Source: Hydrolagus affinis
Lineage: Eukaryota
NCBI GenBank assembly: GCA_012026655.1
Contig: JAAILG010000179.1
Location: forward strand, 1-64,000
Length of the DNA stretch: 64,000 nucleotides
Direction of reading: 5' to 3'
The notes beneath the pieces were generated by a model. That model was not told the DNA's origin, ran no database searches, and worked only from the letters and a program-made list of their open reading frames with translations. A program made the translations under genes and the position numbers. Shown piece by piece: positions 13,721 to 16,700 of this stretch (within the stretch, counting starts at the first letter, position 1; every line of letters begins with the position of its first letter).

Positions 13721-16700
13721 GTGAGTACATTCATCCTATTCCATTCACCTCCTTGGAACTTGGTTGTGGTACAAGCAATGTCTCCTGTCCTGAAATGATT
13801 GACAGGTGCTAGGCAGTCATGCATTGCCTTTAGCTGCTTCAGGAACTATGTCGGTCATATGCTGTGTCTGGATTGAACATCTGGAGGTTCTTGGAACAAT
13901 TAAGAGAGTAAACTAGTGAATTTGTATGGAATTTTTCTGTAACATGGTCAGTCCTCGTATAATGCACAGATTACACACAGCAGAGGGATGGATGTTTAGT
14001 AAGAACTCTCATGAAGGCGTAGCTCTTCATGAACTCTCCATTTGAAATTAACCATAGGAGAAGTGTTCCTTGTTCATAATGTATGATTGATTGTCCAAAT
14101 AGTCGGTCAAGTTTTCTTACCAAGTGGTGCTGAAATTTCTTTTAATTCTATTTTATTCTTGGTTATAGTAATCAGTCGTAAGTTTACAGTAATTAGAATA
14201 ACCACGCAGAAGCTATTCGATTGTAAGTTGCATTCAGAGCATTTTGCCGGCATGTTTTGACAGCTGACACATAAACATTGGTGCTCCAAAGAAGTACTGT
14301 CCAACATGTAAGTTTTCCATTCATTTTTATATGATGAAATAATGTCAATGCAGCTATGTAATAAAAAGGAAATGTGTGATTGTAATCAACAAACAGCCTG
14401 ATAATGATTCTACTCATCATTCTCTCACTAAATGTTAATAAAAACCCTCAAAGGAGTATATTGAGACACTGGATGGAGGACCAACACCAGTTTTAATGCT
14501 GGTTTGGTTAGCTACTTCGAGGCATTTCTTGGCAAACGTTTTGGGCCACTAAGCACACTTGCCGGGGGGGTGGGGGTGCAGGGAATAAGAGATGGGTCTT
14601 CCTTAAGCACCCGATTGATGCATTGCAAGTGGCTAAAATGAAACCGTATTTTAGATCCCATTAAATTTCTAAATTGAAAATAGCATTGGAAACTGGATCC
14701 TGAACTGTTCAAAGGATATATACCTTAGCAAAGCATCAGCTTTAGGTACAATGGTAATTGGAACAGATCCACAAAAGTATAGACATTTGTTCATGACAGT
14801 CCTGGCTTCTCAGGAATCACAAAGCTGTAGAAAGGTGGTTAAACTCTGAAATGATCATTAAAAACTTTAATCCATCTCCCCCTAGTGGGCATAGTGGGTA
14901 AAAGCACCATCTAGTGCATCAAGATCAAGTTCTTTCAGACCAGATCATCTTAGCTAGGACAGCAGTTAGGGTAACAATTTAATTTATTTCCTGATTGCTG
15001 TCAGAGGCGCCTATGGGAAGGGAAGTTATTGGTGTGGACTCCAACGGGAATAGGATTGGGCTGGAATAGCAGGTTAAGTGGTCTGCCAAAAAAGCAGAAA
15101 TCGCTGGGAACAACACTCAGCAGGTCAGGCAGCATCTATAGAGAAAGGAACACTAGTCAATGTTTTGGATCCACAATACTTCTGACGAAGGGTTGTGTAA
15201 CCAAAACATTGACTAATTTTCCTTTCTCCACAAATGCTGCCTGACCTGCTGAATGTTCCCAACGATTTCTCTTTTTGTTTCAGACTTCCAGCATCTGCGG
15301 TATTTTGCATTTTTCTTAAGTGGTCTGCCAATTGGGCTCACACATTTGAAAATTGGTCACTATTCCCCAGTAGGAGGGTGCAGTTTCATGTGGGCCACCC
15401 CCCTGTACACAGATCACAAAGTCTTGTCGTGTTTCAATATTCCAACTAAACTGCAGTCAGTTGCACATGCTGGCTTCTATACATGGCTTCCTAACATAGC
15501 ACTTATAAATGACCATTATTTCACAGTATCTGTACCCAACAACTACTTTTTACTGCTGTCATCCACTTGGACTTGGGTGATGTAGAGGCATTGTGGACTA
15601 CTCTCATCTTCCCCTGCCCTTTCAAAAATAAGTGCATTTCTTTCATTGGATCAACTGGAACATGGAGAAGAGCAATACTTCTTTATATACTTCCACCTTG
15701 CCTGTCAAGTTGGAATTTATTCTATTGCAGTTGTACGGTAAGTTTTCATCAGGGCTTGTTTGTTGATCAGTAGATGGTAAATGAAACTAACATGCATTGT
15801 GTAAAATGAGAGGTCCAAACCATCACTCGAAGAATATTTGTTGTTTATTGTTGTGTCCCTTCAATTAGTCCAACCATCTCCCTTATTTTCTGCAAGAATA
15901 AAAGAATCATTCCATCATATTTTGACTATTGTGCAGTTATTGTTATCTTGCTGATATTTTTCTTTATGTAGAATTCTTTTGCAATAATAGGAATAATAAT
16001 CCTTACATTTGATATAGCACCTTATCACATCATTAAGATGTCTTCACAGGAAATGTTTTGACCCTGCCCATTGTATTTATATCTAATCTAAAGCCATGTA
16101 GTAAACAGCATTGTTCTTTGAAATACAATTTCTTGTCACTGGAATTAAAAGACAGTTGTTCCTAACGACTTTGGCTCTGTGTTTCCAGGCTGCTTTTATA
16201 TTGCTCATCTTGAATTGCAAGATGTTGCTACACTCTAAAGTTCCGGTGTCTTTATATTACTTCTGCAGGGTGCTGGCAGCAAATAAAATTTGCAAATACG
16301 TAAACAGCTAGTGTCATTGTCATGTCCATTTATTGTCATCTCCCATGGATCATCATGATGTGAGAACCATTCTTAGAAATTTATTTTCTTAATCTGCACT
16401 CTAAAAACATGAAGGGTGGGGGGGTGTTGGGGGGTGTTGCTGAATGACAGATGTGCATAAATAAGTACCAGATGACTTTGGTCCAGGTGGCGGGTGCATT
16501 TCCACTATCATAAAGGTACCAGAGCATTGTGGCTACCAAAGGCACACGGATAAATCTGCCTTTGTACTTGCACATAACGTTATTGGGTGTGGTTGCTTTG
16601 ATGCTGACCCTCTCCATCACAGTGTTGGAGGCAGTGGAAGATCAAACTCCACATACAGGTACCGTAATTTGGTACACTGGGTTTTCAGTGCTTTCCAGAG

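What the first reader, a model, noticed from the sequence alone, without database searches (positions are those of the whole stretch)
15090..15315. Palindromic retroposon family whose consensus is a minimal hammerhead ribozyme (Penelope-like)
Seen: six copies of one repeat (6743, 10649, 13220, 15090, 48397, 61737). Combining them gives CCAGTT-CTGACGA-A-GGGTC-GTG-GACCC-GAAA-CGTT-GACT. CTGACGA survives at 13237 and 15182. GACCC-GAAACGTTGA survives at 48498-48512 and on the minus strand at 6809-6834. AGTT can pair with GACT as helix I. Known: CUGANGA + helix II + GAAA + a tiny palindromic helix III (ACGU) is the minimal type-I hammerhead described in Penelope-like element pseudo-LTRs. Inference: these are non-autonomous PLE remnants carrying a decayed self-cleaving RNA. 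No copy here has an intact core (for example GAAAC is AAAAC at 15203, or the CTGACGA half is lost), which could reflect CpG decay or selection against self-cleavage of the SETD5 pre-mRNA.
Basis: partly seen in the sequence, partly recalled or inferred. Interest (0 to 1): 0.72.

Follow-up and report, generated by a model that had tools for sequence, protein, structure and literature searches.

The report
Penelope retrotransposon stubs with decayed hammerhead
These repeats in the SETD5 gene of a cartilaginous fish are short stubs of a known kind of jumping gene (Penelope-like) that carries a minimal hammerhead motif predicted to self-cut; the copies here are broken, mostly by ordinary mutation, and their shared ends suggest they were likely copied from the uncut front end of the element's RNA.

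Summary
Observation confirmed; interpretation largely right, and the kind is known. Six copies are present (four head-to-head palindromes, two single arms), some with 15-18-bp target-site duplications. The hammerhead is not an artefact of combining copies: 1,025 intact cores occur in one arm genome-wide (control 0). The arm is the pseudo-LTR end of an RT + GIY-YIG Penelope-like element (Neptune/Nematis-type linker); a near-full-length copy was found. Corrections: these are truncated insertion by-products rather than a separate non-autonomous family; core loss fits CpG decay and truncation, with no excess of the inactivating change (472 vs 634 neutral); palindromic copies bury the motif in double-stranded RNA; Rfam's hammerhead models do not hit. 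Added: 57 of 58 classifiable palindromes have one tailed and one tail-less arm; 5' ends pile up 2-7 nt before the core (62 of 85 arms reaching it), not at the cleavage site (9 of 140). Likely mechanism: both target strands prime on uncleaved RNA and run off its 5' end. Cleavage and the RNA start are untested. The scan has reported the same pattern in other shark genomes.

The parts
15074..15089 (+). Target-site duplication, left copy (16 bp, exact)
   Evidence: identical to 15316-15331
15091..15182 (-). Inverted, tail-less arm (model +5 to about +93/+100 relative to core C3)
15180..15313 (+). Direct, tailed arm (model -2 to +131)
15182..15214 (+). Decayed minimal hammerhead: C3-A9 intact at 15182-15188; G12 (15203) and G16.2 (15208) changed to A, both at CpG sites; helix II 3' strand altered; predicted cut site 15210/15211
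15283..15313 (+). About 30-nt 'tail' present on one arm only
15316..15331 (+). Target-site duplication, right copy
6739..6921 (.). Palindromic copy: tail-less arm on - (model +5..+100), tailed arm on + (+37..+126); exact 18-bp TSD at 6725-6742 and 6922-6939
10656..10772 (+). Single tailed arm (model +16..+131); no clear TSD
13223..13347 (+). Single tail-less arm (model -14..+102); 15-bp TSD with 1 mismatch at 13208 and 13344
48395..48615 (.). Palindromic copy: tail-less arm on - (+13..+101), tailed arm on + (+7..+131); weak TSD (14 bp, 2 mismatches)
61740..62088 (.). Asymmetric palindromic copy: long tail-less arm on - (model -120..+93, core with an internal deletion), about 65-bp filler, tailed arm on + (+25..+131); TSD uncertain
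13616..63200 (+). Host gene SETD5, 20 coding-exon matches covering aa 25-1340 of the elephant-shark protein; first coding exon (aa 1-24) not found in the window, so the three upstream copies are intronic only by inference

Best explanation
The repeats are 5'-truncated, often head-to-head insertions of the pseudo-LTR end of an endonuclease-bearing Penelope-like retrotransposon, carrying its minimal hammerhead motif, and were likely made when both cut target strands primed reverse transcription on uncleaved element RNA and ran off its 5' end. Shown: the unit is leader (hammerhead at -4..+32, short end near +98, tail end +131), ORF start near +167, RT, Cys linker, GIY-YIG, about 280 nt of pyrimidine-rich 3' UTR, then the hammerhead again; TSDs; one tailed plus one tail-less arm per palindrome; a sharp 5' boundary at -7..-2. 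Inferred: the two 3' ends are the two internal RT start sites shown in vitro for an anole element; the 5' boundary is the RNA start; the ribozyme would work only as a dimer or with the element's protein. The window copies are predicted inert: cores are broken by CpG decay and truncation, and in palindromes the opposite arm pairs over the motif. Identity about 0.95; priming/run-off mechanism about 0.55.
For: Linkage to ORF: 24 of 30 endonuclease-selected loci (one of them, L091, was first found with window DNA); L156 and ORF-start loci; RVT_1 E 1.5e-6; 2,198 homologues, some with both PF00078 and PF01541, shark hits 59-64%. TSD score >=10 in 27 of 107 elements vs 0.5% of 600 shuffled flank pairs, mode 13 bp. 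Tail rule: 46 of 46 classifiable pairs out of 52 (p 1e-14; single arms 26 tailed, 26 tail-less), replicated 11 of 12 out of 17 (the exception L071 shows a tail on reading). 5' ends: 62 of 85 arms reaching -2 stop at -7..-2, 0 of 23 at -13..-8, 9 of 140 at +26..+31; replicate 36 of 56 (core-selected set). Both arms share the boundary or both pass it: edge-edge 8, up-up 3, mixed 0 (p 0.006), replicate 2, 2, 0. ORF-start-bearing copies also stop at -8..-3 (7 loci, about 4 independent, vs 2 that go further). Both arms are of the same subfamily in 21 of 21 and 30 of 32 pairs. Inverted arms join ORF-internal breakpoints in long copies, which fold-back copying does not give. PMC11167929: both strands are cut and extended, two RT starts bound the tail, uncleaved RNA is the main substrate.
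Against: No RNA start, cleavage or splicing was observed: reads from another organism's poly(A) libraries showed no start/end pile-up and no splice joints (weak for this question). No intact ORF was found (longest open stretch 494 aa in 20 loci). Pfam scores are below curated cut-offs (RVT_1 28.6 vs 29.6 bits; GIY-YIG E 0.054). Rfam hammerhead models miss intact cores, no compensatory base-pair change was seen, and the predicted monomer MFE (-11.4) mispairs the core relative to the hammerhead fold (-8.8 kcal/mol). 80 of 107 elements had no strong TSD. Ends were called by local alignment, which blurs them by 1-3 nt and can be confounded at palindrome centres. In long copies the inverted arm often passes the boundary (7 of 13 reach -54 or beyond), so a simple 'inverted arm always comes from the leader' version fails. 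Why one end always takes the tail is not explained.
Confidence: 0.72

Rival explanations
1. Same element, but the inverted arm arises by self-priming (fold-back), as proposed for rotifer elements on an antisense template, with the tail removed on one side during endonuclease-mediated resolution.
For: PMC3846280 (passages) and PMC8557442 (passages) propose this; arms are subfamily-matched; short self-complementary sequence lies at the boundary; some junctions keep 4-5-nt inverted remnants.
Against: In long copies the inverted pLTR arm abuts breakpoints inside the ORF (L102, L109, L152, L154, L158, L159); tailed arms do not reach the boundary more often than tail-less ones (14 of 50 vs 20 of 48); single tail-less arms are as common as tailed ones.
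Confidence: 0.15
2. The 5' boundary is an RT stall or a 3' splice site (the AG two bases before helix I follows a long pyrimidine tract), not an RNA start.
For: In D. virilis Penelope the intron's 3' end maps to the 5' end of helix I (PMC4209133) and the start site is 46 nt upstream of that 75-nt intron (PMC2377424); the upstream 280 nt here are pyrimidine-rich.
Against: No shared exon-like sequence lies upstream of -2 in 27 single arms; no splice joints in RNA reads; a per-cDNA stall predicts mixed edge/up pairs (4.2 expected, 0 seen); a structure stall would fall on the 3' side of the ribozyme.
Confidence: 0.2
3. The short copies are a self-standing SINE- or retrozyme-like family amplified from short masters that begin at -4.
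For: Short copies vastly outnumber ORF-bearing ones; a few loci share an upstream sequence and an internal ORF deletion (L319, L321, L322, L336); animal retrozymes derive from pLTRs (bioRxiv 10.64898/2026.07.22.740005).
Against: Junctions differ from copy to copy; lengths form a continuum into the ORF; both subfamilies behave alike and match ORF-linked pLTRs; ORF-start copies share the boundary; copies are not tandem arrays and ends do not sit at the cleavage site.
Confidence: 0.08
4. Cores in SETD5 were inactivated by selection against cutting the pre-mRNA.
For: 0 of 6 window copies are intact; retrozymes are reported depleted in Xenopus introns; in my 91-arm sample the inactivating change is slightly commoner (20 vs 15).
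Against: Only 21 of 158 arms are intact in the whole sample, so 0 of 10 is unremarkable; 7 of 10 window arms start downstream of C3 by truncation; genome-wide 472 inactivating vs 634 neutral changes at the N7-G8 CpG; palindromes bury the motif; monomers of this type do not cleave in vitro (PMC4209133).
Confidence: 0.05

Closest known systems
Minimal hammerheads of metazoan Penelope-like elements (Cervera and De la Pena 2014, PMC4209133)
   Same: Type I layout, extra nucleotide between A9 and G10.1, G10.1-C11.1 pair, palindromic 15.2-16.2 with no loop 3, 4-bp helix I, location in the pLTR, thousands of dispersed single copies, some pairs on opposite strands.
   Different: Helix II is 5 bp (7-8 in the schistosome families); cut triplet is GUU; no cartilaginous fish is named in the two parts (of four) that I read; supplements not seen.
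EN+ PLE insertions with inverted pLTR, one-sided tail and TSD (PMC3846280; PMC8557442 Fig. 2 legend)
   Same: Head-to-head inverted 5'-truncated copy, about 30-nt tail on one end, TSD, partial tandems.
   Different: TSDs here are longer (mode 13, up to 19 bp vs 8-10 bp in the rotifer examples); most copies are reduced to 100-135-nt arms; strict tail complementarity and the boundary at the ribozyme's 5' edge are quantified here and are not stated in the passages read.
Neptune (or Nematis) clade of PLEs
   Same: DKG motif, C-terminal GIY-YIG with two Cys between GIY and YIG, CX4CxxC linker between RT and endonuclease (criteria from PMC8557442).
   Different: No tree against named references was built, so Neptune versus Nematis is not settled; no microsatellite targeting seen (targets 70% A+T).
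Poseidon of Anolis carolinensis, in vitro (PMC11167929)
   Same: Two internal RT start sites bounding the tail, both strands extended, AT-rich targets, uncleaved RNA as substrate.
   Different: There the ORF starts at helix II and the RT starts lie inside the ORF; here the ORF starts about 35 nt after the tail, and the protein has the Cys linker that Poseidon lacks.
Animal non-LTR retrozymes (bioRxiv 10.64898/2026.07.22.740005)
   Same: Short, non-coding, pLTR-derived, hammerhead-bearing.
   Different: Retrozymes are head-to-tail tandem arrays; these are solo or head-to-head, TSD-flanked and continuous with ORF-bearing copies.

Membership tests
EN+ Penelope-like element | Single ORF with RT and C-terminal GIY-YIG endonuclease | tested here: met
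   RT motifs then GIY-YIG in one frame across decayed copies (407-aa open stretch spanning RT to stop in L155); Pfam scores below cut-off, full-length homologues carry both families
EN+ Penelope-like element | pLTR in partial tandem, flanking the ORF | tested here: met
   L156; tail-to-ORF junction shared across loci
EN+ Penelope-like element | 30-40-nt tail at one end; inverted 5'-truncated copy; TSD | tested here: met
EN+ Penelope-like element | DKG motif and CCHH finger in the endonuclease | tested here: met
   DKG 9 of 20, GIY-CxxC-YIG 5 of 20, His pair 10 of 20 decayed loci by strict pattern
EN+ Penelope-like element | Retained spliceosomal intron (some members) | tested here: inconclusive
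   Acceptor-like sites exist; no splice joints; little ORF coverage
Neptune clade | CX2-5CxxC linker between RT and endonuclease | tested here: met
   11 of 20 loci; shared with Nematis
Neptune clade | RT phylogeny with named Neptune references | not tested
   No named reference sequences were available as tool-given sequences
PLE minimal hammerhead | Core CUGANGA...GAAA...UH in one continuous strand | tested here: met
   (383 and 1,025 exact; control 0); not met in any window copy
PLE minimal hammerhead | Bulged nucleotide after A9, G10.1-C11.1, palindromic 15.2-16.2 | tested here: met
   A bulge 97%, G10.1 92%, C11.1 77%, C15.2/G16.2 83% among 91 arms
PLE minimal hammerhead | Helices I and II form | tested here: met
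   Predicted pair probabilities 0.60-0.87 and 0.98-1.00 in an isolated intact motif; prediction only
PLE minimal hammerhead | Covariation in the helices | tested here: inconclusive
   Only a one-sided C-G to U-G change between the two subfamilies; a looser search found no second family
PLE minimal hammerhead | Self-cleavage as a dimer or with protein | not testable with these tools
   Needs in vitro assay
Rfam hammerhead families | Covariance-model match | tested here: not met
   No hammerhead hit at E<=5 in the window or E<=10 in 6 intact-core loci
Non-LTR retrozyme | Head-to-tail tandem units each with a hammerhead | tested here: not met
   106 elements are solo or head-to-head

The most novel reading that the evidence does not exclude
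The stubs are a genome-scale record of the Penelope insertion step: both cut target strands prime on the same uncleaved RNA, one at each of two fixed start sites, and run off an RNA 5' end that sits exactly at the front of the hammerhead. The ribozyme would then occupy the first 36 nt of the mRNA and its cut product would not be the template; its palindromic helix III could serve mainly to pair two RNAs.
Probability: 0.45. Interest if true: 0.55.

Novelty: new member of a known kind. Interest (0 to 1): 0.33.

Why it matters
As a ribozyme discovery it matters little: minimal hammerheads in Penelope pseudo-LTRs are published and the window's copies are broken. Its value is mechanistic. How these elements make inverted ends and one-sided tails, and what their hammerhead does, are called unresolved in PMC8557442 and PMC11167929. 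Roughly 24,000 copies (95% CI 13,000-41,000) give strict rules (one tail per palindrome; stop at the ribozyme's front, not its cut site; both arms share the stop) that make a two-strand priming model directly testable. For annotators: these hairpins mimic microRNA precursors in Rfam scans and are missed by Rfam's hammerhead models.

Tried and rejected
Rfam scans: no hammerhead hit; sub-threshold microRNA-precursor matches to the palindromes rejected as hairpin artefacts. Cleavage product as template: rejected, 9 of 140 arms end at +26..+31. Spliced exon upstream of -2: no shared sequence in 27 single arms. 'Inverted arm always from the leader, long arm from the 3' copy': rejected. Conservation of core versus control positions (95.7% vs 89.9%) not used as evidence of selection, because controls include subfamily-variable sites. 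Search for a second hammerhead family for covariation: 57 matches, all listed ones look like this family. Sequencing runs: no RNA holder listed for this stretch; reads of another organism lay on both strands of the arm and repeat the same boundaries as loose ends (-5/-4, +97/+98, +131) but show no start/end pile-up or splice joint; run X1 may be the window's own source, so it is not independent. Atlas and PDB searches with a SETD5 exon were uninformative. Lunse et al. 2017 is not held and is cited only through a review. Paper searches for this family in sharks or chimaeras found nothing relevant, nor for twin priming in PLEs (listing only); Repbase/Dfam and subscription papers such as Arkhipova 2006 were not searchable, and no supplements were read, so the family may already be catalogued. 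Sequence look-up in earlier findings returned nothing.

Full report
Positions within the element are given relative to core nucleotide C3 = 0; the predicted cut lies between +28 and +29.

1. Observation. The six copies and every quoted fragment are present. A profile of the element's 3' end finds 10 arms in 6 elements. Four elements are head-to-head palindromes and two are single arms. The 15090 copy has an exact 16-bp flanking duplication and the 6739 copy an exact 18-bp one. The window is C179:1-64000 of a 1.11-Gb assembly. An exon matches SETD5 of cartilaginous fishes at 88-95%, best to elephant shark; 20 exon matches run along the + strand. The 15090, 48397 and 61737 copies lie between mapped exons; the other three lie upstream of the first mapped exon, and the first coding exon is not in the window.

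2. The hammerhead is real as a sequence motif. The continuous core occurs 383 times exactly for one subfamily and 1,025 times for both, among 2,876 full-span matches that allow CpG changes; reversed-pattern controls were 0. It has the features that Cervera and De la Pena list for metazoan PLE minimal hammerheads (PMC4209133; I read parts 1-2 of 4): extra base after A9, G10.1-C11.1, palindromic 15.2-16.2, short helix I. Folding of one intact natural motif gives helix II at 0.98-1.00 and helix I at 0.60-0.87; helix III has no loop and can only form between two molecules (self-duplex -4.1 kcal/mol); the lowest-energy monomer mispairs the core. Against: Rfam's hammerhead models hit neither the window nor six intact-core loci, and no compensatory change was found. 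Activity is untested.

3. Link to a Penelope-like ORF. The long arm of the 61737 copy led to loci with GIY-YIG and RT fragments. In 24 of 30 loci chosen by the endonuclease alone, the arm follows the stop codon in the same orientation, mostly after about 280 nt. L156 holds a partial 5' pLTR, the ORF in two frames (325 and 487 aa) and the 3' pLTR; the tail-to-ORF junction recurs in the loci. RVT_1 matches at E 1.5e-6, just under the cut-off; GIY-YIG at E 0.054. The 487-aa piece has 2,198 homologues among 7,985 scored, including shark proteins at 59-64% and roughly 800-aa proteins with both families. DKG, a CX4CxxC linker and the CCHH finger are present; by PMC8557442 (passages) this indicates Neptune or Nematis, not Poseidon. 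No intact ORF was found in 20 long loci. Random stretches gave 13 elements in 600 kb, about 24,000 genome-wide; one exact 20-mer has 10,525 hits.

4. Anatomy of the stubs. Main set: 106 elements, 158 arms, from the first 100 listed 20-mer matches, 60 random 10-kb stretches and the window; one duplicate dropped after the TSD count. TSDs scoring >=10 occur in 27 of 107 versus 0.5% of shuffled pairs, mode 13 bp. 3' ends fall at about +93..+104 or +131. Of 52 palindromes, 46 could be classified and all 46 pair one tailed with one tail-less arm, whereas single arms split 26:26. A second, core-selected set gave 11 of 12. One-sided tails are described qualitatively (PMC8557442 Fig. 2 legend; PMC3846280). 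5' ends pile up at -7..-2: 62 of 85 arms that reach -2, none of 23 in the next six bases, and only 9 of 140 around the cut site; 7 of 18 arms in the random stretches alone and 36 of 56 in the second set. Copies that carry the ORF start stop there too. Within a palindrome the arms either both stop there or both pass: 8, 3 and 0 mixed, then 2, 2 and 0; pooled 10, 5, 0 gives p = 1/3003 by hand. Numbers are small and ends are alignment-called.

5. Mechanism. Frangieh et al. (PMC11167929; parts 1-2 of 4 read) showed for an anole element that both target strands are cut and extended, that RT starts at two internal sites bounding the tail, that uncleaved RNA is the main substrate, and that the hammerhead cuts only with protein. 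I infer that the two 3' ends here are those start sites, that each palindrome records priming from both strands, and that the 5' boundary is the RNA's start. The bases at -6..0 fit an initiator consensus with A at -4 (consensus recalled, not from a call); Penelope's start site lies in the upstream pLTR (PMC2377424, passages). An RNA starting at -4 can yield only 100-135-nt cDNAs from its leader, which explains the excess of stubs; read-through RNA yields long copies. Fold-back is disfavoured because inverted arms join ORF-internal breakpoints. A stall is disfavoured by the absence of mixed pairs, a splice site by the absence of a shared upstream exon. None of this was observed at the RNA level.

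6. Decay. Among 91 arms covering C3, non-CpG core positions are 92-99% conserved, while G8, G12 and G16.2, each in a CpG, are 75, 73 and 83%; 21 arms are intact. The 15090 copy has G12A and G16.2A. At the N7-G8 CpG the ribozyme-neutral outcome (634) exceeds the inactivating one (472) genome-wide (p 1e-6), although the small sample leans the other way (15 vs 20). The excess may reflect source elements with U7. In palindromes the opposite arm is predicted to pair over the motif completely, even when the core is intact (helix probabilities 0.0 for the 15090 copy, L062, L063). Selection to protect SETD5 is therefore not needed; the sense/antisense test was not possible without annotation.

7. Novelty. 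The kind is published; the family may be catalogued in Repbase or Dfam, which I could not search. My paper searches found no description for cartilaginous fishes; a preprint counts retrozymes in one such species (part 1 and passages). My reading was noted, before one search showed 134 earlier scan findings in at least 14 genomes, several with the same two-strand priming and front-edge boundary reading in sharks. These are unchecked AI notes and are not support; they led me to PMC3846280. Verdict: new member of a known kind, with useful quantitative constraints on an open mechanism. Interest 0.33.

Noticed in passing
window 3243-3535, 4757-5038, 9104-9437, 18704-19145, 23797-23995, 33050-33268, 39495-39953, 63274-63574: A second abundant repeat family with a tRNA-like head (Rfam tRNA hits at 9104-9175 and 63274-63345); looks like a tRNA-derived SINE. 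The copy at 18704-19141 is itself a head-to-head inverted pair.
   Followed up: no
window 26111-26305 and 28393-28582: A 195-bp direct duplication at 93% identity inside SETD5 introns, much younger-looking than the other repeats.
   Followed up: no
window 43778-45339, 56284-56910, 58073-59338: Decayed LINE RT fragments (CR1/L2-like by recalled motifs) in SETD5 introns.
   Followed up: no
L156 (G000:C11589) and alignment: An upstream reading frame of about 38 codons runs through the pLTR end and tail and stops two bases before the likely ORF start; several acceptor-like pyrimidine-AG sites lie in the leader, which could promote exonisation of sense copies.
   Followed up: partly
L319, L321, L322, L336: Copies sharing a non-pLTR upstream sequence, two of them with a second arm about 1 kb downstream (ORF largely deleted): a possible non-autonomous sub-lineage or segmental duplication.
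   Followed up: partly
L091, L094, L106, L115: Several endonuclease-bearing copies are followed by related flanking sequence, suggesting repeated insertion into another repeat or shared duplication.
   Followed up: no
window 6763-6871, 48429-48552: The palindromes give sub-threshold Rfam microRNA-precursor matches; they would form 90-bp double-stranded RNA in the SETD5 pre-mRNA, possible editing or small-RNA substrates.
   Followed up: no
genome-wide: Two subfamilies differ in helix II and loop (C-G vs U-G closing pair) and in the 3' UTR; both show the same end rules.
   Followed up: partly
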